Shown in pieces: positions 377 through 58,682 of a DNA stretch of 64,000 nt (the first letter of the stretch is position 1; each line of letters begins with the position of its first letter). A model generated the notes under the pieces. That model searched no databases and was not told the DNA's origin. It saw nothing but the letters and a program-made list of their open reading frames with translations. This stretch comes from an uncultured Candidatus Saccharibacteria bacterium (GTDB lineage: Bacteria; Patescibacteriota; Minisyncoccia; UBA6257; JACOXY01), in the NCBI GenBank assembly GCA_964357615.1, contig CAYHMC010000004.1, positions 25,722-89,721 on the forward strand. The letters are read 5' to 3'. The position numbers and the translations under genes are program-made.

Positions 377-2686
377 TTATTTAAAATTATCCTTGCGCTT
401 AATGACTTTGTATTCATTACCGTATTTATCCATATAAATAATCATCATTGCTTTCCCAGTAAATTCTTCTGCAGGAATCCTGATATCGGCCTTGGTCTGA
501 TCTGAGTTCACTATTTTATCTGACCAATAGACCTTATCAAGATCAAAAATTTGTGTTTTTTCGTTATAATCAACATCCACCATCACCATAGAAAGTGTCT
601 CGTAATTTTTAAACTCCTCAGGATCATAAGCGAGGGTATTAGATCTAAACTCGGTAATATCCACCATAAATTCTTTTTTTGTCTGCTTGTATTTTGCTTT
701 CACAACCGGCTGTGAAATAAAATCAAAACCTACCGCATCAATCACCTCATTGACATCCGCTTCAGTCATTGGTTGTTTAAGTGCGCCTGGCTGCTTCTTT
801 TGAATTAAGGCGATAAGAATAGATAGCGGAACTTTCAAAAAAACATAAGTTGTATCTCCACGCTTCACCTCATCGTGCATAAAACGCATCGCCACAATCG
901 GCGCAACAACATAAAATCTATCTCCACCTCTACCACCTAGGACTTTGTGCAAATCATCTACATATCCTTCGTCTATTTCTAGCTTCTTGTTCGCTGGATA
1001 GTTCCAAATAAATGTGGAATGCGTGCTGATATAGCCATCAGCGTCAAAAGCTTTTATTTTGTGCGGTGAAATACGCACATCGAAAAGTTGTGCCACAAAT
1101 GGTTTGTATTGTTCCCAATCCATTTTTAGAATTGCTTCATTGTCATACATTCCGGCAGAATAAAGCTTAAAATGCTTTGCCTTGAGCGGTTTTGATTCCT
1201 CCGTTTTTTCCTTAGGCGCAACAAACGAGATTAGAAACTTCACTCGTCCAACCTTTACCACCTTTTGCCCAGCGCTTGCGCCATCATCACCAGCGTCTTC
1301 GTTATCTACTACCTTTAATTTCTTAACCTGGAATTTTTCTTCCGGACAAACAAGAGAAAAACTCTCTTCACCACGCCCAGCTAAATAATCTCCAATAAAT
1401 TTTCCAAATGAAATAAGAAATCCATCATTAATGACAAGATCGCCCGACCGTGCTTTCTCATAGATCAAAAGTAACCCACGGGTGTTTGATTTGGAGTGTT
1501 CTTCGAAATCCACTACACGCTCATAATCTCTTTTGTCATCTTTGTGCGCTGATCCAATTTGTGTTGTAAGATTAAGTAATCTTTTTTGCGAAGTATAAAT
1601 AGAAAGTTTTCCGCAATCCATGCCTATCCATTTATATCCTAATTTCTCAGCGGCAATCTGAGTCACACCACTACCCATAAATGCATCGAGAACAATGCCA
1701 TTTTTTTGACCAGATATTTTAATAATTCTTGCTAATAGACCTTCCGGCTTCTGTGTCGGATAAACAATAGACTCACTAGACCAACTTCCAATTGTTGCAA
1801 CTTCTTTATCATCCCAAATACTTTGAGGAAGTAATCCGCCCATCTCGTCAGAAAACTGCTTCAACCTAGGAAAACCGTTTCTTGTAACAAATATCTTACC
1901 CTCTAGGTTCATTTTATTAAGCTCTTCAATCGAATATCCCCAACCCCTTTTTCCACTCGGGAGTACGCCCATAAATTTGAAGTAATTCTTTGCCGACCGA
2001 GACGGCACAGTCAAATCGCCAGATTTAAATCTTCGTCCGTCAACATTTTCATATCTATAGTATCTCTTTAGATAATCAGAGCTGTAATCAATTTTGAAAT
2101 CATTCCAAATATAGTTTTCAGATTTTGTGTAGAAAAAAATAGTTTGATGAATATTTCCATAATTGTTTGCATTACTATGCGCCGATGTAGTCTTCCAAAC
2201 TATTTCTCTTTTAAAATTATGTTCACCGAATACTTCATCAAGTATAGCCTTAATATAATGTCCTTTTTTCGAATCAAGATGAACATAAATTGATCCATCA
2301 TCCGCTAGTACTTCGCGCATTAAAATTAGACGCTTGCGTAAAAACTCAATAAACTCTGCGCCAATAACTTTATCGCGATATGCTTTCTCGCGATCTTTCA
2401 TAAAATCCTGCTTAGTCGCAAAGGGTGGATCTATGTAAATGAGTTTTATTTTATTTTTTGTGCCAAGTTTATTTTCCTTTCGCTGGTCATCATAAATAGT
2501 TTTGAGTGCGTAAAGATTATCGCCAAAAATAATCATGTTCGCCCATTTATCGTCGAATTTATTATCAGTATTATATTCTCTCATCTCTTGCAACGGAGCC
2601 GCCGGAGTTTCAGCAATCACACGCGCCTCTGGCGTTTTCCCTTTGTAGACCAGTTTGTAGTCCTTGGTCGCCTCCACATAATCCAC
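377..2686 (-). CDS. Type III R-M Mod subunit: N6-adenine DNA methyltransferase (beta-class) with a long C-terminal extension
   Basis: 769 aa. Motif IV 'LIYIDPPFATKQDF' near the N-terminus precedes the AdoMet motif I 'VLDAFMGSGVTQIAAEKLGYKWIGMD'. The IV-before-I order indicates the beta class used by Type III Mod. About 430 aa follow motif I, which is longer than usual. Confidence 0.75.
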   Translation of the reverse strand: MDYVEATKDYKLVYKGKTPEARVIAETPAAPLQEMREYNTDNKFDDKWANMIIFGDNLYALKTIYDDQRKENKLGTKNKIKLIYIDPPFATKQDFMKDREKAYRDKVIGAEFIEFLRKRLILMREVLADDGSIYVHLDSKKGHYIKAILDEVFGEHNFKREIVWKTTSAHSNANNYGNIHQTIFFYTKSENYIWNDFKIDYSSDYLKRYYRYENVDGRRFKSGDLTVPSRSAKNYFKFMGVLPSGKRGWGYSIEELNKMNLEGKIFVTRNGFPRLKQFSDEMGGLLPQSIWDDKEVATIGSWSSESIVYPTQKPEGLLARIIKISGQKNGIVLDAFMGSGVTQIAAEKLGYKWIGMDCGKLSIYTSQKRLLNLTTQIGSAHKDDKRDYERVVDFEEHSKSNTRGLLLIYEKARSGDLVINDGFLISFGKFIGDYLAGRGEESFSLVCPEEKFQVKKLKVVDNEDAGDDGASAGQKVVKVGRVKFLISFVAPKEKTEESKPLKAKHFKLYSAGMYDNEAILKMDWEQYKPFVAQLFDVRISPHKIKAFDADGYISTHSTFIWNYPANKKLEIDEGYVDDLHKVLGGRGGDRFYVVAPIVAMRFMHDEVKRGDTTYVFLKVPLSILIALIQKKQPGALKQPMTEADVNEVIDAVGFDFISQPVVKAKYKQTKKEFMVDITEFRSNTLAYDPEEFKNYETLSMVMVDVDYNEKTQIFDLDKVYWSDKIVNSDQTKADIRIPAEEFTGKAMMIIYMDKYGNEYKVIKRKDNFK

Positions 2687-2857
2687 CGCGTCACCATCAA
2701 AAAGCTTCGCTTGATATGAAGTGGATAAGTCCCTACCCTCTGATAAGGACTTTATAATTTTTTTCGGTCATCATCTGATAGTCTCACTATATTTTTGCTA
2801 ATTTTATCCAATAAATATATTTTCCCATTTTTTACCAAAAAACAAAAGCTTTCGAAA

Positions 2858-3412
2858 TTACTGCTTAACTAATTTTACCCTAAACTCCTCTAATTTTTTA
2901 ATACAATCATTTGCTTGTTTTGGAGTGTATGCAATGTGTTCTTGAAAATCAGCAGATTTGAGATGCACTAAATTACGGGCTTTCCGAAGCTCGTGGCAGA
3001 AATGCCACATGCTTTCATCTATAAACTTATATTCATGATAGGCTATTCCCAAAAGCACAGTAAAATCTGTTCTATCCCCCATTTCCAACCCATCTTTCTG
3101 TTTTGCAGTTGTTATGAGGTCAAATAAAGATGCTTCAATTATTCCCCCAACAGTTACAATTATATCTTTGCAGAGCAGTGATTCAACTGTTAGATAAATT
3201 TGATAGTCGTTATATAAATGAACCATAAACTCTAAATATTGCATTTGGTATGCGATATTTTCCCGCACTGTTTTATCTTCTATAAATTTCCACTCGTCTT
3301 TATAAAAATTAGCCGGTTTTGGGTGCCGGTCTTTTACAAAAAGTTCTTTTTTATCAGAATTATCTTTGCGCCTGTTTTCCTCTTCTAAAATTGATTTTCT
3401 TAGGAGTTCCAT
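2858..3412 (-). CDS. hypothetical protein; possible HEPN-like C-terminal helix (RKARNLVH)
   Basis: 184-aa ORF. The C-terminal 'HELRKARNLVHLKS' resembles the Rx4-6H / RN(I)LVH signature of HEPN/HepT nucleases. No other recognisable motif. Confidence 0.4.
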   Translation of the reverse strand: MELLRKSILEEENRRKDNSDKKELFVKDRHPKPANFYKDEWKFIEDKTVRENIAYQMQYLEFMVHLYNDYQIYLTVESLLCKDIIVTVGGIIEASLFDLITTAKQKDGLEMGDRTDFTVLLGIAYHEYKFIDESMWHFCHELRKARNLVHLKSADFQEHIAYTPKQANDCIKKLEEFRVKLVKQ

Positions 3413-3538
3413 ACAAGTATTTTCAGAATAATTGTACTATGAAATATGCTTGATTTTGCCCATTTTAGTTATCCACATCCCAGTTGACTTTTAACAAATA
3501 TTTGATATACAATAATTGGGTATAACCACAAAAAGGCT

Positions 3539-3575
3539 CCCTTAAGGTTCCGTCCTTAAGGGGCCCTTTTTATTT
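3539..3575. terminator. bidirectional rho-independent terminator
   Basis: Stem CCCTTAAGG / CCTTAAGGG (9 bp, loop ttccgt). It is followed by TTTTTATTTATT on the plus strand and by TTTTTG on the minus strand. Confidence 0.65.
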
Positions 3576-4067
3576 ATTGGGTACGTATTCTAGTTTTCTC
3601 TTTAAAGAACTTATAAAAGAAATGTATTTTAGATGTTCATCGTTAACTTTTTTTAATAGTGCTGAATACTTAAATTCATTTGGTACCAAAAGTTGCTCAA
3701 GTTTATCTTTTGACTTCAAATAATCAATAAGTGAGTAGTAGTCGCCATCCCCACTTACTATTACTGCTTTATCGTAATTAGGATATTCGATCATTGCTCT
3801 AAGAACCAAATCAGCGTCACAGTTACCTTTTGTGGTGCCATCTTTATAGGTTAATACTGGTTTAAAAATAAGAATATAATCTTGCTGTTGAAATTTTGTA
3901 TACATAGCTTGATTTTCGGGCATGTATCCTATTGCAAGATAAGCTTTTTTAACATTATATTTTTCTCTTAAATATCTCCTAAACTTCAAATAATCGAGGG
4001 GCCAACCAAGATTTTTCATGGACTGATACAGATTATTGCTGTCTATAAATGCGGCATTATTATTCAT
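3570..4067 (-). CDS. NYN/LabA-like (PIN-like) domain protein
   Basis: 165 aa. 'AAFIDSNNLY', 'GNCDADLVLRAM' and 'VIVSGDGDY' match the conserved acidic motifs of NYN (DUF88/LabA) ribonuclease-like domains. Confidence 0.65.
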   Translation of the reverse strand: MNNNAAFIDSNNLYQSMKNLGWPLDYLKFRRYLREKYNVKKAYLAIGYMPENQAMYTKFQQQDYILIFKPVLTYKDGTTKGNCDADLVLRAMIEYPNYDKAVIVSGDGDYYSLIDYLKSKDKLEQLLVPNEFKYSALLKKVNDEHLKYISFISSLKRKLEYVPNK

Positions 4068-4194
4068 ATAAATATATTGTAATATAAATCATAAATTAAC
4101 AATCCCCTGCTCTTTCTAAGATTTTCCAAAACCTTCCCCCCTTAAGTTATCCACAGAAACGCCATTTGACTATATACACCCACTTAGTGTACTA

Positions 4195-4223
4195 TTGACA
4201 ATAAGATATACATAGACTATAAT
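4195..4223 (+). promoter_or_regulatory. sigma70-like promoter (TTGACA-17-TATAAT) for the Nudix/NrtR-like gene; near-leaderless
   Basis: TTGACA at 4195-4200, a 17-nt spacer, then TATAAT at 4218-4223. The start codon at 4236 is only about 6-8 nt from the predicted transcription start, and no Shine-Dalgarno sequence is present. Confidence 0.55.
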
Positions 4224-4235
4224 GACATTATAAAT

Positions 4236-4937
4236 ATGAAAAAGATAACTAAAACTAAAGAACCACAGATTCACTTTGCAGCCTTGGCTGCTGACACTGC
4301 TCTATTTACCCTAGAAAACAATGAGCTTTTAGTAAGGTTAATTAGAGTTAATCGGCCACCACACATTAAAGACGCCATTGGCCTCCCTGGCGGGCTATTA
4401 CTCCCCAAGGAAACGGCAGATGAGGCGGCGCTTAGGCACTTAGAATCGAAAACTGATGTGTCGAATAAAGGTGTTTATATTGAACAGCTCTATACCTTTA
4501 GTGATATAAATAGAGACCCCAGAAACCGAGTTGTGGCAGTAGCGTACATGGCACTTATTCCATGGAAAGAACTTAGCGAGAATGAACAACTTGGAAACAT
4601 TACAAAATCTTGGTGGGTCCCAGTAAAAAAACTTCCGAAGCTTGCTTATGACCACAATAAAATTATGGAAGTTGCACTCCGTCGCCTTGCATCAAAAATT
4701 GGCTATACAACAATTATAAAAAAATTACTTCCAAGGGAATTTACTTTAATAGAACTTGAACACGCCTACGAAACAATTCTAGGAGAAAAAATTGATCGCA
4801 GAAATTTTAGAAAGAAAATTAAAAAGTTAAAGCTTGTAGTGTCCTTAGACAAAAAAATTCGCGGATTCAAGTGGCGCCCGGCAATGCTTTATTCTTTTAA
4901 ATCAAACAAAGTCGAACATACCCCGAACATAACTTAA
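4236..4937 (+). CDS. Nudix-fold protein with degenerate Nudix box; NrtR-like (Nudix-related transcriptional regulator of NAD metabolism) candidate
   Basis: 233 aa. 'GLPGGLLLPKETADEAALRHLESKTDV' is a Nudix box in which RE is replaced by RH, EE by ES and G by T, so it is probably catalytically dead. About 90 extra C-terminal residues are present. The gene sits directly upstream of the prs-like and nadV genes, as in NrtR regulons. Confidence 0.5.
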   Translation: MKKITKTKEPQIHFAALAADTALFTLENNELLVRLIRVNRPPHIKDAIGLPGGLLLPKETADEAALRHLESKTDVSNKGVYIEQLYTFSDINRDPRNRVVAVAYMALIPWKELSENEQLGNITKSWWVPVKKLPKLAYDHNKIMEVALRRLASKIGYTTIIKKLLPREFTLIELEHAYETILGEKIDRRNFRKKIKKLKLVVSLDKKIRGFKWRPAMLYSFKSNKVEHTPNIT

Positions 4938-5064
4938 AAAGTTATGGACGGGGCAAGTGAATATTTTATAATTAACCAAAATTAATACCTATATTTTTTT
5001 GATATTAGTTTATGTATATACTACACTAAGAAATCTATTATATTATTTTTTTATCATTAGTTAG

Positions 5065-5077
5065 TGTAATTTATACA
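5065..5077. promoter_or_regulatory. palindrome TGTA-N5-TACA, candidate operator upstream of the prs-like gene
   Basis: TGTAATTTATACA lies about 110 nt upstream of the prs-like start codon, in the AT-rich nrtR-prs intergenic region. Confidence 0.2.
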
Positions 5078-5096
5078 TTAATACATGGGCCGTGAC

Positions 5097-5149
5097 GATT
5101 GCGGATTTAACAAATAATTCCGCAGTCGCCTTGGCCTTAAACCCCAAGG
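5097..5149 (+). promoter_or_regulatory. two adjacent hairpins in the 5' leader of the prs-like / nadV operon
   Basis: Hairpin 1 is 5097-5128: a 9-bp stem CGATTGCGG/CCGCAGTCG with a 14-nt loop. Hairpin 2 is 5129-5149: CCTTGG/CCAAGG with a 9-nt loop. Neither is followed by a U-tract. Both lie about 35 nt upstream of the RBS GGAGG. Confidence 0.35.
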
Positions 5150-5185
5150 ATGTACCTTGAAAACTCAAAACGGAGGAAAAGGAAA

Positions 5186-6043
5186 ATGGAAAAAAATACA
5201 GCAGTAGTAAATCTTGACCCAGCATTTAGCCCATACGGCGAATCTGATTTTAAGGTAAAGGTATTCCCCTTCCCCAGCAAAGTTGAGATGGGTGTAAAAA
5301 TTGATATCCCAGAAATTACCCCAGTTACTATTACAACAAGACTTAAATCTTCGGACGACATTATGACTTTGCTTAATGCTACTGATGCACTGCGCCAAGC
5401 TGGCATTAAGGAAATTAGCTTGTTTATGCCATTTGTCCCCTATGCAAGACAAGACCGCGTTATGGTTCCGGGTGAAGCACTTTCGATTAAAGTTTTTGCA
5501 AAACTCATTAATACACAAGGTTACGACAGAGTTACCATTTTTGACCCGCACTCGGATGTTACGCCGGCCTTGATTGATAATGCGTACGTCATAAACAATC
5601 ACGAGTTTGTGAAGCTCGCGCTTAAAGATATGGAAAATTACATTATTATTTCTCCCGATAGCGGAGCATTTAAAAAAGTATTCAAAGTTTGCCAAGCGAT
5701 TGGTTATAACGAACGCGTGGCACTCTGCAATAAAGTAAGAACGCTTGCAAACGGAAATATTGAACATTTGTCTTTTGATGTTCAAAGCTTTGAGGGAAAA
5801 GACGCTGTGATTATTGATGACATTTGCGACGGTGGTGCAACTTTTATTGCACTTGCTACCGAACTTAAAAAGCGCGATGCAGGAAAAGTACACCTTATTG
5901 TTTCGCACGGAATTTTTTCGCGCGGAGTAAATAATCTATTAAATAGTGGGGTTGATACCATAACCACTACAGACAGCTTCAAAGATATTGGGGCTTTCGA
6001 AAATGTACGCCAAATCAAATTAGCCGAAATTATTAAGAAGTAA
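5186..6043 (+). CDS. ribose-phosphate pyrophosphokinase (Prs) family protein; possibly Adps-like paralog
   Basis: The ORF track starts at 5150, but the ATG at 5186 follows the RBS GGAGGAAAAGGAAA. Prs-family motifs 'PYARQDR' and 'IIDDICDGGATF' (PRPP loop) are present. The canonical Prs N-terminal regulatory motifs are absent. Confidence 0.6.
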   Translation: MEKNTAVVNLDPAFSPYGESDFKVKVFPFPSKVEMGVKIDIPEITPVTITTRLKSSDDIMTLLNATDALRQAGIKEISLFMPFVPYARQDRVMVPGEALSIKVFAKLINTQGYDRVTIFDPHSDVTPALIDNAYVINNHEFVKLALKDMENYIIISPDSGAFKKVFKVCQAIGYNERVALCNKVRTLANGNIEHLSFDVQSFEGKDAVIIDDICDGGATFIALATELKKRDAGKVHLIVSHGIFSRGVNNLLNSGVDTITTTDSFKDIGAFENVRQIKLAEIIKK

Positions 6044-6064
6044 AGGAAGAGGGAGGAAACGAAA

Positions 6065-7606
6065 ATGAACACAGACAGATTCACAAAAATTGCAGATCCA
6101 GCGCAAAGAGAAGCGGCGCTCGTAAAAGAGCTTTCGCGACTCTATGATGTTATGTTGCCCACTCAACTTAATCCCTTACTCGCCCTTGATGTTTATAAAA
6201 TGGGCCATATGGAGCAATACGCTCCGGGATGTAGCAAAGTTTTTAGCTATTTACTTGCAAGGTCTTCGAATAAGTATCAGCTGACTGTTTTTAACGGATT
6301 GCAATATTACCTTGATACTTATCTTTCGACTCCACTTCACCCTGAAATGGGAAGAGAATTTTTGGATTATCGCGAAGAAATTTTGGGCATGCCTAATCCG
6401 CAAATTGTAAAAGACCGAATTTATAAGCTTTGTGACCTTGGATATTTTCCGATTGAGATTTGTGCAGTTCCTGAAGGCACTATTATGCCAACCAAAAATG
6501 TTCTTATGACCACCGTAAACACCAAACCAGATTTTTTCTGGGTTCCAGGGTTTTTGGAAAGTTTATTGCTTAAAGTTTGGGACCCAATTACCACGGGCTC
6601 GTGCTCGTTTGTATATAGGAAAATGATTGAGGATATATTTAAGGAAACGGTTTCGGAAGAACTTATGTTTTTGAAACCAATTATGGTGCATGATTTTGGC
6701 TACCGTGGTTGTAAGTCGGAAGAAGAAGCTTGTATTACCGGATTGTCGCACCTTATTTCGTTTACGGGGAGTGATACTGTTCCCGCTCTGCCATTTGCAA
6801 GAAAAAGATATGGCGCCGAAAAAGGCAAAGTAGTTATGGTTTCTGTTCCGGCTTCCGAGCATGCAGTAATGTGTTCGTTCGGCCGAGATAATGAGCTTGG
6901 CGGATTCTTTAATATGTTGGATCTTTACCCCACCGGTATTGTTAGCATTGTTTCTGACACCTATAGCATTTATCGAGTGCTCACTGAATTTGCTTCTAAG
7001 TTGAAGAGCAAGATATTGGCCCGTCCGGAAGGAAGCAAAGTTGTCTTTAGGCCTGATAGCGGAAATCCTGAATATATTATTTGCGGAGATCCAAACGCCA
7101 CCCAAGGTAGCAACGAATGGAAGGGTGCAATTAGATTACTCGATGAAATGTTCGGCTCGACAGTTAATAGCAAGGGTTATAAAGAATTAAATCCTAAAGT
7201 TGGACTAATTTACGGAGACGGAATGTATATTGAAAGATATGCGAAAATTTTAGAGCGCTTAAAGGAAATGGGTTATGCGGCAAGTAACCTTGTTATTGGT
7301 GTTGGCGGAATTCTTAGAAATCACAGCCGTGATACGCTTGGATTTGCTCTAAAGGCAACCTATGTTGAAGTTAATGGCGAAGCTCGCGAGATTGAAAAAG
7401 ATCCGGTTACTGATTCGAAAAAGAAAAGCCATAAGGGATTAGTTGCGCTAAGGCGTACACCTGAAGGCGAATATTACACCGTAGACCAATGCACTTCGGA
7501 AGAAGCAGAGAATACGCTACTTCTGCCGGTTTATCGCGACGGACAGGTGATTAAAAGATATACTCTGCAAGAAATGAGAGCATGCGTAAATGAATATTTT
7601 AAGTAA
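6065..7606 (+). CDS. nadV: nicotinamide phosphoribosyltransferase (NAMPT/NadV family)
   Basis: 513 aa. 'LDVYKMGHMEQY', 'VHDFGYRG', 'IVSDTYSIY' and 'FRPDSGNP' match the NAMPT-family blocks (TDSYKVTHY, LHDFGYRG, VVSDSYDIY, IRPDSGNP). RBS GAGGGAGG. Confidence 0.8.
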   Translation: MNTDRFTKIADPAQREAALVKELSRLYDVMLPTQLNPLLALDVYKMGHMEQYAPGCSKVFSYLLARSSNKYQLTVFNGLQYYLDTYLSTPLHPEMGREFLDYREEILGMPNPQIVKDRIYKLCDLGYFPIEICAVPEGTIMPTKNVLMTTVNTKPDFFWVPGFLESLLLKVWDPITTGSCSFVYRKMIEDIFKETVSEELMFLKPIMVHDFGYRGCKSEEEACITGLSHLISFTGSDTVPALPFARKRYGAEKGKVVMVSVPASEHAVMCSFGRDNELGGFFNMLDLYPTGIVSIVSDTYSIYRVLTEFASKLKSKILARPEGSKVVFRPDSGNPEYIICGDPNATQGSNEWKGAIRLLDEMFGSTVNSKGYKELNPKVGLIYGDGMYIERYAKILERLKEMGYAASNLVIGVGGILRNHSRDTLGFALKATYVEVNGEAREIEKDPVTDSKKKSHKGLVALRRTPEGEYYTVDQCTSEEAENTLLLPVYRDGQVIKRYTLQEMRACVNEYFK

Positions 7607-7617
7607 TTATAAGCAAA

Positions 7618-7656
7618 TCCCCTCGCCCGATTATTCGGATGAGGGGACTTTTTATT
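7618..7656 (+). terminator. rho-independent terminator after nadV
   Basis: TCCCCTCGCCCGA ttat TCGGATGAGGGGA stem followed by CTTTTTATT. Confidence 0.65.
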
Positions 7657-7682
7657 AACTATCGTTTCTTTCCTTTCTTTAC

Positions 7683-7722
7683 TGTTTTCTTTTTAGCTGT
7701 TTTCTTTGCTTTTGTTTTCTTT
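7683..7722. repeat. three direct repeats TGTTTTCTTT at 15-nt spacing in a long AT-rich intergenic region
   Basis: TGTTTTCTTT occurs at 7683, 7698 and 7713. A polypyrimidine tract precedes them. Confidence 0.4.
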
Positions 7723-7918
7723 TTTGCCATAAATATATTGAAGTTCTTAAACTCGATTTGTATGTCGACCTTTAGTATGGTTTTTCGTAAGTTGTTTAAA
7801 AATACTTATACGAATTTTATTTGATTTTTTAAAATTATTTAACTTTTAAATTGACTCTCGATATATAAAGTATACTACAAATCATAATTTTATAATTGTG
7901 TATAAATAAAAATAAAAA

Positions 7919-7959: not shown

Positions 7960-8574
7960 TTAATCGATTGACCTACCTCGAATTTTTCTTCGGTCATCTA
8001 TTGTCATTTCGCGCTCAATCATACCAGATTCCATTACATAACCACCAATTTCAACTCGCTGTAACCCGCTATCGTGAATTGCCGCGGCATCAGAAAGTGT
8101 CATCCACTTTCGAATACCATCTATAACCATAAGATAATAAGGAAAATTATTATCAGCTTTTTCTTCTCTAACAGTCCAAACAGGATTTGGGAGCCAATGC
8201 GCTGAAGCAATGGGCACAGTGGCGATTTCTCCAAAAAATAAATCAGGGAGACCATTCATCATATTTAGCTCTCCACCCAAAGCAGTGCCAAAAGCATCAT
8301 TAAACGCATCTCCACGAGTTACATAAAAAAAGTGGAGCTTTACGATGCTTCCTGAAACAGCAGGATGCAAGCCAAGCTCAACAAGGCCTTTATGTTCATC
8401 GTCCCCTCTTCGCCTCGAAATCAAAGCGAGACCACCAACATCTTCTGCGTGTAACTTTCCGCCAGAATCTAGATGATTACTCATCAAAATCCATGCCCTC
8501 TTGCAGGCAAATTCGATTTCTTTTAAAAGATTTGGTGCAATTGGATTGCAAATTCCCATCACGACAAAAGGCAT
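7960..8574 (-). CDS. hypothetical protein (visibly G+C-richer than its neighbours)
   Basis: 204-aa ORF (MPFVVMGICNPIAPNLLKEIEF...). No motif could be assigned. Codon composition is rich in GCC/GGC/CGC compared with surrounding genes. Confidence 0.5.
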   Translation of the reverse strand: MPFVVMGICNPIAPNLLKEIEFACKRAWILMSNHLDSGGKLHAEDVGGLALISRRRGDDEHKGLVELGLHPAVSGSIVKLHFFYVTRGDAFNDAFGTALGGELNMMNGLPDLFFGEIATVPIASAHWLPNPVWTVREEKADNNFPYYLMVIDGIRKWMTLSDAAAIHDSGLQRVEIGGYVMESGMIEREMTIDDRRKIRGRSID

Positions 8575-8734
8575 GCTCTACCTCACGAACACTCAAGAAA
8601 CTGGTGTTTTTATACTAAAAAACGAAGAAAATATCAAGACCAACAAAATCCATTTAAAATACCTATATTGACTAATATTCTATAATGTTATATAATCGGC
8701 AACAGCAAATCGCACTAGAAAAGGAGAAGCGGAG

Positions 8735-9052
8735 ATGGGGCTTAGCCTCAAAGACCAAGTAAAACCATCGGGCTTCAATATCAAAAGCCATCTGATTGGA
8801 AGTAATCTCAATAAATCGGAGAAAGAAACTGTGGCTAGAAATGTCATTGTTATTTCTCTTAGGAACGGTGATGCATGGTTTGATTTCACCTTCGAAGATT
8901 ATATGGATGCATGTGGCAGAGATAGGTCTTTTGCTGGCGAGGAAGCCTGCCTCAATGACCTCGTCCACGAAGACGGCGTTCTTACTAAAACCGGAAATGT
9001 ATATTCCGTAAATGAGAAATTTTTTAGAACTCTGGCTAAGTTCATCAAGTAA
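8735..9052 (+). CDS. hypothetical protein
   Basis: 105 aa, with a strong RBS AAGGAGAAG 7 nt upstream. Preferred over the overlapping minus-strand ORFs. Confidence 0.5.
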   Translation: MGLSLKDQVKPSGFNIKSHLIGSNLNKSEKETVARNVIVISLRNGDAWFDFTFEDYMDACGRDRSFAGEEACLNDLVHEDGVLTKTGNVYSVNEKFFRTLAKFIK

Positions 9053-9063
9053 GGAGGAGCGCG

Positions 9064-9474
9064 ATGAGTCAACACCCGTTTGTTGCAGTAAAGAAAGTCG
9101 AAGGCCCTATCAAAAATTCCCTTACAGGTTTATATGACCCCAACGGAGTTGACCTTGGCGGAAAATATTCGCTAGAAGCTCTATTTAATGAAATTCGAAT
9201 TGATGGGCTGATAGAGCGGTGCCGAGAGAAAGGCGGACCGGTATATCTCCTCGTGTGGGAAGGAAACAAAATCCCTCGTGGTGCAAAAATTATGGGCCAC
9301 GAAATCGTCTGGACTCAAAATGGACTTGTTTCCGCATCTCTTGGAGCTGTAGAAAGATCATTCGACATTGGCACATATGATCGCCTTGTGGAATTTGGAG
9401 GAAAAACTGGAAATCTCCAAGTGATGATGGTTTATGTTTTTCCGAGTATCAATGAAAAGGAAGAAGACAACTGA
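9064..9474 (+). CDS. hypothetical protein
   Basis: 136 aa. RBS AAGGAGGAGCGCG-ATG. It lies 11 nt after the preceding gene, so the two are operonic. Confidence 0.55.
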   Translation: MSQHPFVAVKKVEGPIKNSLTGLYDPNGVDLGGKYSLEALFNEIRIDGLIERCREKGGPVYLLVWEGNKIPRGAKIMGHEIVWTQNGLVSASLGAVERSFDIGTYDRLVEFGGKTGNLQVMMVYVFPSINEKEEDN

Positions 9475-57821: not shown

Positions 57822-58682
57822 ATGAAGAAAATGAAAGAACAAAAAAATAAACCTTATGAAACTTTAATTTATTATCGTGATGACAATAATGAAGCAAAAT
57901 CATGGGAAGAAAAAATTATAAATCAATTAAAAAAGAATGGAATTAAAATTAACTTAGATTCCGAAAAACCAGAAGTCGTAATTATTTTGGGTGGCGATGG
58001 AACTATTCTTGAAGCAGTTAGGAAATTTAGTAAATTCAATCCCCTATTTCTGGGACTTAACTTGGGTCATGTTGGTTTTTTAGCATCAGTTAGAGATGAA
58101 AATGAATTTATCAATGCTATTAATAAATTTATCGAAAATAAATATTCGATTACAGAAAGAATGATGATGGATTCAAAAGTTATGAGAAATAAGAAAATTA
58201 TTAAAAATTACACTGCACTAAATGATGTATCGATTCAGAACCTTTTGGGTATGGTTAAGCTCTCGGTTTCGATTGATAATCATCCCCTACAAAATATTCA
58301 TGGCTCTGGAATGCTTGTTGCAACAGCAACGGGCTCAACTGCCTACAACTTATCTGCACACGGTCCGATTGTAATGCCAGATATTCGTTGTTTTATTATT
58401 ACTGAAATATTAGATCACAACATTCCAACTCCACCGCTTGTAGTAAAACAAAACAGAATTATTGAAATTAAGGTGGAAAGTTTTAGAAAAAGAGAACCGT
58501 TTTTACTTCAATACGACGGCACTCCAGCAGATGTAATCATTTCAGCAGACGGAGAATCAATTTTTGCATTGCAAGAAAAAGATATCGTAAGAATAACCGA
58601 ATCTTTATGTTCCGTTCGTTTTGTAGAATTTGAGGATAATTACTTTTTTAAGAGTCTCGCTGAGAAGTTTTCTTTTCGTTAG
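57822..58682 (+). CDS. nadK: NAD kinase
   Basis: 'VVIILGGDGTILEA' GGDGT motif, 'NDVSIQ', 'DGESIFALQ'. Confidence 0.8.
   Translation: MKKMKEQKNKPYETLIYYRDDNNEAKSWEEKIINQLKKNGIKINLDSEKPEVVIILGGDGTILEAVRKFSKFNPLFLGLNLGHVGFLASVRDENEFINAINKFIENKYSITERMMMDSKVMRNKKIIKNYTALNDVSIQNLLGMVKLSVSIDNHPLQNIHGSGMLVATATGSTAYNLSAHGPIVMPDIRCFIITEILDHNIPTPPLVVKQNRIIEIKVESFRKREPFLLQYDGTPADVIISADGESIFALQEKDIVRITESLCSVRFVEFEDNYFFKSLAEKFSFR

What the first reader, a model, noticed from the sequence alone, without database searches (positions are those of the whole stretch)
4195..7656. Nudix(NrtR-like)-Prs paralog-NadV operon: chromosomal NAD+ salvage module that resembles the phage NARP1 (Adps + Namat) counter-defence pair
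The operon has three genes in order. The first is a Nudix protein with a degenerate, probably inactive Nudix box and an extra C-terminal domain, as in NrtR regulators. The second is a 297-aa Prs-family protein that lacks the usual Prs N-terminal regulatory region. The third is a clear NAMPT/NadV homolog. In NrtR regulons the prs paralog was long assumed to supply PRPP for NadV. Recent work on phage NAD+ reconstitution (NARP1) showed that such Prs-like proteins can be ADP-ribose pyrophosphate synthetases (Adps). These act with a NAMPT-like enzyme (Namat) to rebuild NAD+ from ADP-ribose and nicotinamide. In a CPR-like organism with minimal metabolism this pair may be the main route to NAD+, or an immunity or anti-toxin countermeasure. 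The nrtR-like gene has a textbook TTGACA-17-TATAAT promoter and a near-leaderless mRNA. nadK is also present in the window at 57822.
Basis: partly seen in the sequence, partly recalled or inferred. Interest (0 to 1): 0.6.

Follow-up and report, generated by a model that had tools for sequence, protein, structure and literature searches.

The report
NrtR-controlled ADP-ribose-to-NAD recycling operon
A groundwater ultra-small bacterium carries a repressor-controlled gene pair that most likely rebuilds NAD+ directly from its breakdown products ADP-ribose and nicotinamide; it is a cellular relative of a phage counter-defence pathway, but its second enzyme lacks that pathway's published hallmark.

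Summary
There are three co-oriented genes: an NrtR-family regulator (4236-4937), a Prs-like protein (5186-6043, 285 aa rather than 297) and a NadV/NAMPT homologue (6065-7606). A perfect TTGACA-17-TATAAT promoter precedes them and a terminator follows.

This is the nrtR-prs-nadV arrangement described in 2008, here in a Patescibacteria (CPR) genome. Three 21-bp palindromes (TTAGTGTA-N5-TACAnTAA) sit on the nrtR -35 box and in the nrtR-prs spacer. Related loci have them only when they also carry nrtR.

The Prs-like protein belongs to the Adps (ADP-ribose pyrophosphokinase) family. It has the Adps PP-loop (DDICDGGATF), lacks the Prs regulatory loop and C-terminal module, and groups with phage Adps at 100% bootstrap. 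It is 40% identical to the structurally solved ICP1 Adps.

The NadV is not a canonical Namat. It lacks the aromatic "selectivity clamp", has Nampt-type residues at every Namat-specific contact, and falls in a sister clade ("clade B"). Clade B is nevertheless always next to, and sometimes fused to, Adps-like proteins.

The best reading is an ADPR-inducible, NARP1-like NAD+ recycling module with a clamp-less transferase. The classical PRPP-to-NMN reading is not excluded. Nothing supports a counter-defence role.

The parts
4184..4204 (.). NrtR box 1 (TTAGTGTACTATTGACAATAA). It is a 21-bp imperfect palindrome with a GT-N7-AC core and overlaps the -35 hexamer of the nrtR promoter, which implies autoregulation.
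   Evidence: 4 matches in the window against 0.42 expected, and 3 of them are in this locus. An identical box overlaps the same -35 hexamer in L104. The motif class matches Rodionov 2008.
4195..4223 (+). Sigma-70-type promoter of nrtR: TTGACA, 17 nt, TATAAT.
   Evidence: (12 of 12 positions) and the sequence. The ATG lies 12 nt after the -10 hexamer and there is no Shine-Dalgarno sequence.
4236..4937 (+). nrtR: a 233-aa Nudix-like domain (degenerate box) plus a C-terminal winged-helix DNA-binding domain.
   Evidence: The full-length PDB matches are B. thetaiotaomicron AraR 5bs6 (109 bits) and S. oneidensis NrtR 3gz5 (93 bits).
4921..4953 (+). Hairpin spanning the nrtR stop codon, followed by a weak U-rich tract. 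It is a possible terminator or attenuator between nrtR and the downstream genes.
   Evidence: -19.1 kcal/mol, z -4.49; inverted repeat I3.
4992..5086 (+). Tandem 43-nt repeat units (4992-5034 and 5044-5086, 52-bp register). Each carries a T-tract, promoter-like hexamers and one NrtR box.
   Evidence: direct repeat D1, 72% identity; TTGATA-17-TACACT at 4999-5027, 9 of 12.
5009..5029 (.). NrtR box 2 (TTTATGTATATACTACACTAA).
   Evidence: The counterpart in L104 is at 1024-1044.
5061..5081 (.). NrtR box 3 (TTAGTGTAATTTATACATTAA).
   Evidence: 1 mismatch to the palindrome. Boxes occur upstream of adps in L105, L106 and L108, and are absent from loci that lack nrtR.
5087..5137 (+). Strong hairpin in the presumed 5' leader of the adps-nadV transcript. 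Its role is unknown.
   Evidence: -35.3 kcal/mol, z -3.66. L104 has hairpins at the same place with a different sequence. There is no consensus structure across six loci and no Rfam match.
5186..6043 (+). Adps-family Prs paralogue (285 aa). It is the predicted ADP-ribose pyrophosphokinase (ADPR + ATP -> ADPR-PP + AMP).
6065..7606 (+). NadV/NAMPT-family transferase (513 aa) of 'clade B'. It has a Nampt-like active-site entrance and the Namat-type ICGDP insertion. It is the predicted Nam + ADPR-PP -> NAD+ enzyme and probably also makes NMN from PRPP.
7618..7656 (+). Intrinsic terminator after nadV (stem 7618-7647, then CUUUUUAUU).
   Evidence: -21.1 kcal/mol, z -4.64.

Best explanation
This is an ADP-ribose-inducible NAD+ recycling module. 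It is a cellular counterpart of phage NARP1 and possibly an ancestral form of it.

Proposed mechanism:
1. NrtR binds three 21-bp palindromes. One covers the -35 box of its own near-leaderless promoter. Two lie in the duplicated promoter region ahead of adps-nadV. Binding keeps both units repressed.
2. When NAD+ is consumed, free ADP-ribose accumulates, binds the catalytically dead Nudix domain and releases NrtR. This step is inferred from the S. oneidensis and Synechocystis NrtRs.
3. The Adps-family enzyme then transfers pyrophosphate from ATP to the terminal ribose of ADP-ribose, giving ADPR-PP.
4. The NadV-family enzyme replaces that pyrophosphate with nicotinamide and regenerates NAD+ directly, with no NMN adenylyltransferase needed.
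5. Because the transferase has an open, Nampt-like pocket entrance instead of the aromatic adenine clamp of phage Namat, it probably also accepts PRPP and makes NMN.

Shown here: gene identities, family and clade membership, operator sites and their co-occurrence with nrtR, and the obligatory pairing or fusion of the two enzymes.

Inferred: the effector, both substrate specificities and the direction of regulation.
For: Adps membership:
- The PP-loop DDICDGGATF matches the solved and assayed ICP1 Adps (DDICDGAASF) at C215, D216, G217, A219 and F221. Canonical Prs has DDM(I/V)DT(G/A)GT(L/I).
- The catalytic residues K185, R187, H121, D161, D212 and D213 are kept.
- The beta-hairpin carries the Adps-type 2-residue insertion, K.R..NG.I.
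- The basic residues of the Prs regulatory loop and the C-terminal module are absent.
- 19 alignment columns separate the bacterial clade from Prs, mostly in the same way as phage Adps does. There is no reversion toward Prs states.
- An NJ tree gives 100% bootstrap for phage Adps plus the bacterial clade against E. coli, B. subtilis and Legionella Prs.
- Against ICP1 Adps the protein scores 143 bits (39.8% identity). ICP1 Adps scores 60 bits against E. coli Prs and 89 bits against the other verified Adps, SPbetaL1.
- It scores 256 bits against PHROG 619, 158 bits against TIGR01251, and falls below the cut-off of every Prs equivalog model.
- Verified Adps does not make PRPP.

Coupling of the two enzymes:
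- In 80 GTDB loci recovered through the Adps-like protein, most carry nrtR directly upstream and a nadV homologue downstream. Every clade-B nadV among them is immediately adjacent to adps, and three further clade-B nadV contexts also have an Adps-like gene just upstream.
- Two natural fusion proteins join Adps and clade-B NadV, one in each order, and there is a phage fusion family.
- Uncultured-phage contigs also pair DDICDGG-type Adps with clamp-less NadV.

Regulatory logic:
- The known NrtR effector, ADPR, is the Adps substrate.
- Boxes are enriched, conserved, and present only where nrtR is present.

Independent context:
- In Bacteroidota loci of the sister type, ADPR-releasing enzymes (ADP-ribosylglycohydrolase, NADAR, Macro, Tpt1) are inserted between adps and namat.

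Biochemical precedent:
- A bacterial NARP1 from Paenibacillus foliorum works in vitro and in vivo.
- Clamp mutants of Namat keep part of their ADPR-PP activity, with single mutants reduced only 1.3- to 1.7-fold.
Against: - The NadV fails the published Namat signature. Its SCH reads GVGG-IL-RNHSRD, with no aromatic residue at motif positions 3 and 7.
- G190, G362, G391 and L394 are all Nampt states, and the SCL is short and human-like.
- The protein lies outside the 97-99% supported Namat clade.
- Double clamp mutants of Namat lose up to 17-fold of their ADPR-PP activity while keeping PRPP activity.
- The NadV passes the NCBIfam equivalog model for this PRTase family.
- A 60%-identical relative has a NadM-like NMN adenylyltransferase gene directly upstream, which fits an NMN route.
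- By plain BLASTP the Prs-like protein is about as close to E. coli Prs (101 bits) as to SPbetaL1 Adps (91 bits).
- The trees are NJ only and use just three canonical Prs outgroups.
- The best PDB match of the regulator is an arabinose-sensing AraR, so the effector is not proven.
- There is no biochemical evidence for any member of this bacterial clade.
Confidence: 0.55

Rival explanations
1. Classical reading (Rodionov 2008). The Prs paralogue is a dedicated, unregulated PRPP synthetase. NadV is an ordinary Nampt that makes NMN from PRPP and nicotinamide. An NMN adenylyltransferase encoded elsewhere completes NAD+ synthesis. ADPR acts only as the 'NAD is being consumed' signal for NrtR.
For: - The NadV has Nampt states at every Namat-discriminating position and lies outside the Namat clade.
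- It passes the NF006629 equivalog cut-off.
- A NadM-like gene is adjacent in relative L105.
- The Prs-like protein passes the general TIGR01251 cut-off and keeps all universal Prs catalytic residues.
Against: - The Prs-like protein carries the Adps-specific donor-site PP-loop and hairpin and lacks the Prs regulatory elements.
- It clusters with enzymes shown not to make PRPP.
- It fails all canonical Prs equivalog cut-offs.
- It shows no reversion toward Prs states relative to the sister clade, which is paired with signature-bearing Namats.
- The 2008 authors themselves found a second, NrtR-regulated prs unexplained.
Confidence: 0.27
2. Relay variant. Adps makes ADPR-PP. A Nudix hydrolase then cleaves it to PRPP + AMP, as NudC does in vitro. 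The Nampt-like NadV uses that PRPP to make NMN.
For: NudC converts ADPR-PP to PRPP in vitro. The NadV pocket is Nampt-like.
Against: The locus has no active Nudix hydrolase, because the NrtR Nudix box lacks the catalytic glutamates. The route wastes ATP compared with direct ADPR hydrolysis followed by Prs. Fusions of Adps with NadV argue for direct hand-over of the product.
Confidence: 0.06
3. Conflict-system reading. The pair is carried on a mobile element or prophage remnant. It serves as a countermeasure against an NAD+-depleting toxin or defence system, rather than in housekeeping.
For: NARP1 is mainly a phage counter-defence pathway. A DNA methyltransferase and a NYN-domain gene lie upstream. 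NadV clade B is 64-77% identical across phyla, which suggests horizontal transfer.
Against: - No phage, integrase or NADase genes lie next to it.
- In related CPR genomes the module sits among rpoC, dnaG, the sigma-70 factor gene, topA and serS.
- It is controlled by a metabolite-responsive repressor with conserved operators.
Confidence: 0.05

Closest known systems
nrtR-prs-nadV operons of Shewanella oneidensis, Chromobacterium violaceum, Cytophaga hutchinsonii and Acinetobacter ADP1 (Rodionov et al. 2008, PMC2330246)
   Same: The gene order is the same (nrtR, operator, prs paralogue, nadV). The regulator is an NrtR with a degenerate Nudix box. There are tandem 21-bp palindromic operators with a GT-N7-AC core in the nrtR-prs spacer. 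The role assigned is nicotinamide salvage.
   Different: The host is a Patescibacteria (CPR) bacterium. The operator consensus is lineage-specific (TTAGTGTA-N5-TACACTAA). There is an extra autoregulatory box on the nrtR -35 hexamer. The prs paralogue is identified here as Adps-family. I could not obtain the gammaproteobacterial sequences, so I do not know which NadV type they carry.
Phage NARP1: Adps + Namat of Bas63, SPbetaL1 and ICP1 NrsAB (Osterman 2024; Lan 2026; Liu 2026)
   Same: The first enzyme is a member of the same family and has the same PP-loop, hairpin and truncations. The two genes are adjacent in the order adps then nadV homologue. The second enzyme shares the ICGDP insertion and the catalytic core, and belongs to the same 97% supported superclade.
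   Different: The second enzyme lacks the SCH/SCL aromatic adenine clamp that defines Namat. The module is chromosomal, repressor-controlled and not in a phage. No activity data exist.
Bacterial NARP1 of Paenibacillus foliorum (Lan et al. 2026) and the Bacteroidota nrtR-adps-(ARH/NADAR/Macro/Tpt1)-namat loci found here
   Same: These are bacterial, chromosomal Adps plus NadV-family pairs. The Bacteroidota loci also have nrtR upstream, and their Adps is 49-50% identical to the window's.
   Different: Their transferase carries the canonical GS(F/Y)TYQY(N/V)TRD motif, whereas the window's does not. Many Bacteroidota loci contain ADPR-releasing enzymes inside the operon, and the window has none.
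Classical NadV (Nampt) nicotinamide salvage: Xanthomonas campestris Nampt, human NAMPT, and phage NARP2 NadV + NadM/NatV
   Same: The active-site entrance residues (G190, G362, G391, L394), the HDFGYRG histidine loop and the short SCL are all of the Nampt type.
   Different: Classical Nampts lack the insertion of about 13 residues (ICGDPxA...) and are not paired with an Adps-like gene. The window's NadV branches with the Namats, away from them.

Membership tests
NrtR family of Nudix-related transcriptional regulators | N-terminal Nudix-fold domain fused to a C-terminal winged-helix DNA-binding domain | tested here: met
   Pfam NUDIX plus NrtR_WHD (E 1.5e-21). There are full-length matches to AraR 5bs6 and S. 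oneidensis NrtR 3gz5.
NrtR family of Nudix-related transcriptional regulators | 21-bp palindromic operators with a GT-N7-AC core, overlapping or downstream of the promoters of the regulated genes | tested here: met
   There are three boxes in the locus, with 4 matches in 64 kb against 0.42 expected. They are conserved in L104, L105, L106 and L108 and absent where nrtR is absent.
NrtR family of Nudix-related transcriptional regulators | ADP-ribose releases the repressor from DNA | not testable with these tools
   This rests only on analogy with the S. oneidensis and Synechocystis NrtRs. The best PDB match is the arabinose sensor AraR. The protein scores 125 bits against NCBIfam NF050029, well below the 400-bit cut-off.
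Adps (ADPR-PP synthetase; Prs-like) | Remodelled PP-loop or donor site (ICP1 C215-S220: DDICDGAASF) instead of the Prs sequence DDxxDT(G/A)GT | tested here: met
   The window protein has DDICDGGATF, with C215, D216, G217, A219 and F221 identical to ICP1 (rule).
Adps (ADPR-PP synthetase; Prs-like) | Catalytic beta-hairpin lysine (K185) and conserved acceptor-site residues (R87, H121, D161, D212, D213) | tested here: met
   All are conserved. These residues are also shared with Prs, so they are not discriminating.
Adps (ADPR-PP synthetase; Prs-like) | Loss of the C-terminal alpha11-alpha12 module and degenerate allosteric sites and RF loop | tested here: met
   The protein ends about 16 residues before E. 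coli Prs, and the RF-loop basic residues RRVRSAR are replaced by VMVPGE (feature). This is judged from alignment only, not from a structure.
Adps (ADPR-PP synthetase; Prs-like) | Falls in the Adps clade, separate from cellular Prs, and is adjacent to a Namat/NadV homologue | tested here: met
   NJ bootstrap is 100% against three canonical Prs. PHROG 619 scores 256 bits. nadV starts 21 nt downstream. The caveat is the small outgroup and the NJ method.
Adps (ADPR-PP synthetase; Prs-like) | Converts ADPR + ATP to ADPR-PP and does not make PRPP from ribose-5-phosphate | not testable with these tools
   This needs an enzyme assay.
Namat (nicotinamide ADPR-transferase) | SCH motif GSxΦxΦxΦTRD with aromatic residues at motif positions 3 and 7 (F392 and Y396 in SPbetaL1) | tested here: not met
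   The window protein has GVGG-IL-RNHSRD, which is one residue shorter and has no aromatic residue. Positions 391, 392 and 396 read G, gap and N (rule).
Namat (nicotinamide ADPR-transferase) | Extended SCL (beta1-beta2 loop) that supplies an Arg, Lys or Tyr stacking residue | tested here: inconclusive
   The loop is short, with a length like Nampt. The window has N followed by K-Y at the R40-equivalent position, and close relatives have K or R.
Namat (nicotinamide ADPR-transferase) | Membership of the Namat clade in a NadV-family phylogeny | tested here: not met
   The Namat clade (105 sequences) has 97-99% bootstrap and excludes the window protein. The window protein sits in clade B (24 sequences, 64%), inside a 97% supported superclade together with the Namats.
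Namat (nicotinamide ADPR-transferase) | Nampt-like catalytic core (F189, D215, R306, D308, catalytic His) and an adps gene immediately upstream | tested here: met
   The core residues are all conserved, the HDFGYRG loop is present, and adps lies directly upstream.
Classical Nampt/NadV (PRPP-dependent) | GxGG(G/A)LLQK-type SCH-equivalent, G at positions 190, 362 and 391, no ICGDP insertion, and not linked to Adps | tested here: inconclusive
   The pocket residues are met. However, the insertion is present, the SCH is one residue shorter with invariant R-N-H, linkage to Adps is obligatory, and the tree separates the protein from classical Nampts.

The most novel reading that the evidence does not exclude
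The NrtR-Adps-NadV(clade B) module may be a clamp-less, possibly ancestral form of NARP1. In this reading ADPR-PP is used by a transferase with a Nampt-like open pocket, perhaps recognising the ADP moiety through the clade-specific invariant R-N-H of its SCH. NrtR makes the pathway substrate-induced.

Three things would follow:
1. The 'second prs' of NrtR regulons, unexplained since 2008, would be an ADPR pyrophosphokinase throughout bacteria.
2. Phage NARP1 would derive from, or share ancestry with, a cellular ADPR-recycling pathway.
3. Metabolically reduced Patescibacteria would be able to regenerate NAD+ from its own breakdown products without NMN adenylyltransferase.
Probability: 0.35. Interest if true: 0.7.

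Novelty: new variant of a known kind. Interest (0 to 1): 0.5.

Why it matters
Three consequences would follow if the reading is right.

1. It would answer a question left open in the 2008 NrtR paper: why an ADP-ribose-sensing repressor co-regulates a second "PRPP synthetase" with NadV. The enzyme's substrate would be the inducer itself. No paper in the searchable library links NrtR to NARP1.

2. It would test whether the aromatic selectivity clamp, published in 2026 as the defining feature of Namat, is really required for ADPR-PP use. A large, conserved clamp-less clade is always coupled to Adps, is sometimes fused to it, and occurs in both bacteria and uncultured phages.

3. It would show that ultra-small CPR bacteria can conserve NAD+ by direct re-ligation of ADP-ribose and nicotinamide. 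That bears on how such reduced cells maintain cofactors.

If instead the pair makes PRPP and NMN, the finding is an ordinary NrtR regulon member in a new phylum.

Tried and rejected
- **Riboswitch in the nrtR-adps spacer.** Rfam at gathering thresholds and at E<=10 found nothing relevant. The strong leader hairpin is shared only with the closest relative, and no consensus structure emerges from six loci.
- **Second Prs paralogue in the window.** None was found by phmmer against all ORFs of at least 90 aa.
- **NMNAT in the window.** No (H/T)xGH nucleotidyltransferase motif occurs in the first 80 residues of any ORF of at least 90 aa, apart from MetRS and EF4. This is weak negative evidence, because only 64 kb was available.
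- **Defence-island context.** PADLOC hits only the methyltransferase and weakly the NYN protein. There are no NADases.
- **Prophage context.** The only PHROG hits are the three genes themselves.
- **Solved Adps structure in the PDB copy.** None was retrievable; only Prs entries matched. I therefore took the ICP1 Adps sequence from the phage genome.
- **Organism name.** The exact-sequence cluster look-up returned no names.
- **Reversion of the window's Adps-like protein toward Prs.** I tested whether it shows Prs-like states compared with the sister clade. It does not.
- **Structure prediction.** I did not run it. The tools return no coordinates or ligand poses, so it could not discriminate ADPR-PP from PRPP use.
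- **Gammaproteobacterial prs and nadV.** I could not obtain the S. oneidensis or Acinetobacter ADP1 sequences, nor that of the industrially used Chitinophaga pinensis Nampt. Their type (A or B) remains unknown.

Full report
**What is there**

The window region 4184-7656 holds three co-oriented genes.

- Gene 1 (4236-4937, 233 aa) combines a Nudix fold with the NrtR-type winged helix (Pfam NrtR_WHD E 1.5e-21). It aligns end to end with the solved NrtR-family proteins AraR (5bs6, 109 bits) and S. oneidensis NrtR (3gz5, 93 bits). Its Nudix box reads ...RHLESK... where the catalytic REUxEE should be.
- Gene 2 is a Prs-family protein. The ORF opens at 5150. However, the GGAGG at 5172-5176, the public gene call (285 aa, identical sequence) and the N-termini of 26 homologues all point to ATG 5186.
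- Gene 3 (6065-7606, 513 aa) is a NadV/NAMPT homologue (487 bits on NF006629).

The TTGACA-17-TATAAT promoter at 4195-4223 is a 12-of-12 match. The ATG follows 12 nt later without a Shine-Dalgarno sequence. In the closest relative the -10 box ends 6 nt before the ATG. A strong hairpin followed by a U-run right after nadV (7618-7656) closes the unit.

nadK at 57822 is real. The host is a Patescibacteria/CPR bacterium from a Hainich groundwater 0.1-um-fraction metagenome.

**Regulation**

The pattern TTAGTGTA-N5-TACACTAA, allowing up to 3 mismatches, occurs four times in 64 kb against 0.42 expected. Three of the four are in this locus:
- 4184-4204, overlapping the -35 hexamer of the nrtR promoter;
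- 5009-5029 and 5061-5081, in the 248-bp nrtR-adps spacer. Each sits inside one copy of a 43-nt tandem repeat with 52-bp register.

These are 21-bp palindromes with the GT-N7-AC core that Rodionov et al. defined for NrtR operators. Two sites in the nrtR-prs spacer is exactly the S. oneidensis layout.

The box is identical in relative L104 and overlaps the same -35 hexamer. It is a perfect palindrome upstream of adps in L105. Variants precede adps in L106 and L108. Loci without an nrtR gene (L102, L107, L002, L005) have no box.

The nrtR stop codon lies in a -19 kcal/mol hairpin. I therefore read the locus as two units, nrtR alone and adps-nadV, both under NrtR control.

A -35 kcal/mol hairpin in the adps leader is shared only with L104. 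It has no Rfam match and no consensus structure across six loci.

**This is a known arrangement**

nrtR-#prs-nadV was described in 2008 for Shewanella, Chromobacterium, Cytophaga and Acinetobacter. The authors noted that a second prs committed to NadV "is yet to be elucidated".

A scan of GTDB species representatives with an alignment of the Prs-like protein returned 80 loci, mostly Bacteroidota plus a Sericytochromatia and a Saccharibacteria genome. Most have nrtR directly upstream and a nadV homologue downstream.

**The Prs paralogue is an Adps**

Osterman et al. showed that phage "Prs" proteins next to "NadV" pyrophosphorylate ADP-ribose and do not make PRPP. Liu et al. (NAR, Sept 2026) solved the ICP1 Adps structure. 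They named as family features a remodelled PP-loop or donor site (C215-S220), the catalytic hairpin lysine, loss of the C-terminal alpha11-alpha12 module, and degenerate allosteric sites.

I took the sequences of ICP1, SPbetaL1, a Felixounavirus (Bas63-type) and five other phage Adps from their genomes, and E. coli Prs from MG1655. The comparison gives the following.

- The window protein has DDICDGGATF against ICP1 DDICDGAASF. Prs has DDM(I/V)DT(G/A)GT(L/I).
- It has DPHSDV where Prs has DLHAxQ, and PDxGAxKK where Prs has PDxGGVxRA.
- It shares the two-residue insertion in the catalytic hairpin.
- It lacks the basic RF-loop residues and the last ~16 residues of Prs.
- It scores 143 bits (39.8% identity) against ICP1 Adps. 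ICP1 Adps scores 60 bits against E. coli Prs and only 89 bits against the other verified Adps, SPbetaL1.
- It scores 256 bits on PHROG 619, 158 bits on TIGR01251, and is below cut-off on every Prs equivalog model.
- In an NJ tree, phage Adps plus the bacterial NrtR-linked proteins form a clade with 100% bootstrap against three canonical Prs.
- Of 19 columns where the bacterial clade differs from Prs, most share the phage-Adps state. There is no sign of reversion to Prs in the window's subgroup.

Caveats: the tree is NJ with few outgroups. By BLASTP the protein is no further from E. coli Prs (101 bits) than from SPbetaL1 Adps (91 bits), because the bacterial clade is short-branched.

**The NadV is not a canonical Namat**

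Its best PDB match is the SPbetaL1 Namat (9W5W/9W5X, 322 bits), ahead of the human and Xanthomonas Nampts (about 283 bits). It shares with Namats an insertion, IICGDPxA..., that classical Nampts lack.

Lan et al. (NAR, Jan 2026) define Namat by an adenine "selectivity clamp". This consists of an SCH motif, GSxΦxΦxΦTRD, with aromatic residues at motif positions 3 and 7, plus an extended SCL loop.

The window protein has GVGG-IL-RNHSRD. When the NAD+-contact residues of 9W5W are mapped onto it, every Namat-specific position carries the Nampt state: G190, G362, G391, no F392, L394, N396. The HDFGYRG loop and the short SCL resemble human NAMPT.

The 80 bacterial loci split into two types.
- "Type A" (Tenacibaculum, Larkinella, Psychroserpens, many Pedobacter) has a perfect Namat motif, GS(F/Y)TYQY(N/V)TRD.
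- "Type B" (the window, Sericytochromatia, Saccharibacteria, Mucilaginibacter, other Pedobacter) has the clamp-less motif and is 64-67% identical to the window across phyla.

A search of 1.84 billion representatives gave 150 family members. In an NJ tree of these plus references:
- the Namat-signature clade (105 sequences) has 97-99% support and excludes the window protein;
- the window protein sits in a neighbouring "clade B" (24 sequences, 64% support);
- the two share a 97% supported superclade that excludes classical Nampts.

Clade B is defined by a Nampt-like SCH, the insertion, and a conserved His before (S/T)RD.

**Clade B is nonetheless tied to Adps**

- Starting from three further clade-B NadVs in CPR-type contigs, each has an Adps-like gene directly upstream and two have nrtR. 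The neighbours are core genes: rpoC, dnaG, the sigma-70 factor gene, topA and serS.
- Two representatives are natural fusions, Adps-NadV (P0249) and NadV-Adps (P0256). Both have DD(L/M)CDGG PP-loops and clade-B SCH motifs.
- PHROG 12872 is a phage fusion family that matches both window proteins.
- Eleven IMG/VR phage contigs carry NadVs 44-56% identical to the window's. In the nine where the segment could be read, the SCH is of the Nampt-like GG type, and each contig has a DDIC(D/L)GG-type Adps-like gene next to the NadV.

Adps and NadV subtypes co-vary in the two trees.

**Interpretation**

With the first enzyme an Adps, the only known fate of its product is transfer to nicotinamide by the adjacent NadV-family enzyme. 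The known NrtR effector, ADPR, would then be the pathway's substrate.

This substrate-induction logic fits the type-A loci, where ADPR-releasing enzymes sit between adps and namat: ADP-ribosylglycohydrolase, NADAR, Macro, Tpt1/KptA and a metallophosphoesterase. It also fits the experimentally working bacterial NARP1 of Paenibacillus foliorum. Together these make a NARP1-like ADPR + Nam -> NAD+ recycling module the best reading (confidence 0.55).

The missing clamp is real counter-evidence. Double clamp mutants of Namat lose up to 17-fold of their ADPR-PP activity and keep PRPP activity, although single mutants lose less than 2-fold. One 60%-identical relative has a NadM-like NMN adenylyltransferase gene immediately upstream.

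I therefore keep the classical PRPP -> NMN reading at about 0.27, and I expect the transferase to be at least bispecific.

A counter-defence or anti-toxin role is not supported by the context. Whether this is the organism's main NAD+ source cannot be decided from 64 kb. No NMNAT and no second Prs are in the window.

**Novelty**

These parts are all published:
- the operon type (2008);
- Adps and Namat (2024);
- bacterial NARP1 (2024 discussion, 2026 experiment);
- the structural rules for Namat and Adps (2026).

No paper in the searchable library mentions NrtR together with NARP1. The 2022 survey of NAD/ADPr systems describes NrtR-like regulators of ARG-centred systems without Prs or NadV.

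What I found described in none of the papers searched or read:
- the assignment of the NrtR-regulated prs paralogue to the Adps family;
- the recognition of a large clamp-less NadV clade that is obligatorily coupled, and sometimes fused, to Adps in bacteria and phages.

I rate this a new variant of a known kind, of moderate interest, with clear and inexpensive biochemical tests.

Noticed in passing
L007:6834-9744 and L023:6871-10185 (Bacteroidota loci related to the window's operon): In 'type A' nrtR-adps...namat loci, genes for ADP-ribose-releasing or ADP-ribose-processing enzymes are inserted between adps and namat. L007 has DUF4291, ADP-ribosylglycohydrolase, a metallophosphoesterase and NADAR. 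L023 has an ARH-NADAR fusion, Macro, Tpt1/KptA and a metallophosphoesterase. The whole looks like an operon that funnels ADPR from several sources into NAD+.
   Followed up: partly
Proteins P0249 (766 aa) and P0256 (779 aa) from the representative search; PHROG 12872: These are natural single-polypeptide fusions of an Adps-like domain with a clade-B NadV, one in each domain order. There is also a phage family (phrog_12872) that matches both window proteins.
   Followed up: partly
Representatives P0242, P0253, P0254, P0298, P0309-P0330 and others (about 800 aa); P0252 and P0284 (1000-1054 aa): Many NadV-family proteins carry insertions of about 300 aa, most of them at or near the ICGDP insertion site. 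They may be inteins or homing-endonuclease inserts. A few proteins are tandem double NadVs.
   Followed up: no
window 4992-5034 and 5044-5086: A 43-nt tandem direct repeat (72% identity, 52-bp register) duplicates a T-tract, promoter-like hexamers and an NrtR box ahead of adps. The two boxes also form a 26-nt inverted repeat.
   Followed up: partly
window 5087-5137 and 5145-5159; 5154-5162: The leader of adps has a very stable hairpin (-35 kcal/mol, z -3.7) and a second small hairpin. L104 has hairpins at the same positions with a different sequence. A short element, CTTGAAAAC, just upstream of the Shine-Dalgarno sequence recurs in the window, L102 and L105. There is no Rfam match.
   Followed up: partly
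window 377-4067 (- strand): Upstream and divergent from nrtR lie three genes: a 769-aa N6/N4 DNA methyltransferase (PADLOC MTase_II 275 bits, with a long uncharacterised C-terminal half), a 184-aa protein with no family match, and a 165-aa NYN-domain protein. A NYN gene also lies near the adps-nadV pair in L107.
   Followed up: no
window 7960-9474: Three ORFs downstream of the terminator (204, 105 and 136 aa) have no Pfam, PADLOC or PHROG match. The 61-aa hydrophobic ORF at 7639-7824 may be spurious.
   Followed up: no
L105:430-996: In a 60%-identical relative of the Adps-like gene, a NadM-like (archaeal-type) NMN adenylyltransferase gene sits directly upstream, separated from adps by a perfect NrtR palindrome.
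   Followed up: partly
window 54055-54075: A fourth, weaker box-like match (TTAGTGTCTTTTTTAGACTAT, 3 mismatches) lies inside an ORF on the minus strand. It is probably a chance match.
   Followed up: no
PDB entries 9ke8 and 9keo: An unpublished or unidentified 'nicotinamide phosphoribosyltransferase' structure (495 aa) clusters inside the Namat clade but has a variant SCH, GAQTYQRNTRD. Its source organism could not be determined here.
   Followed up: no
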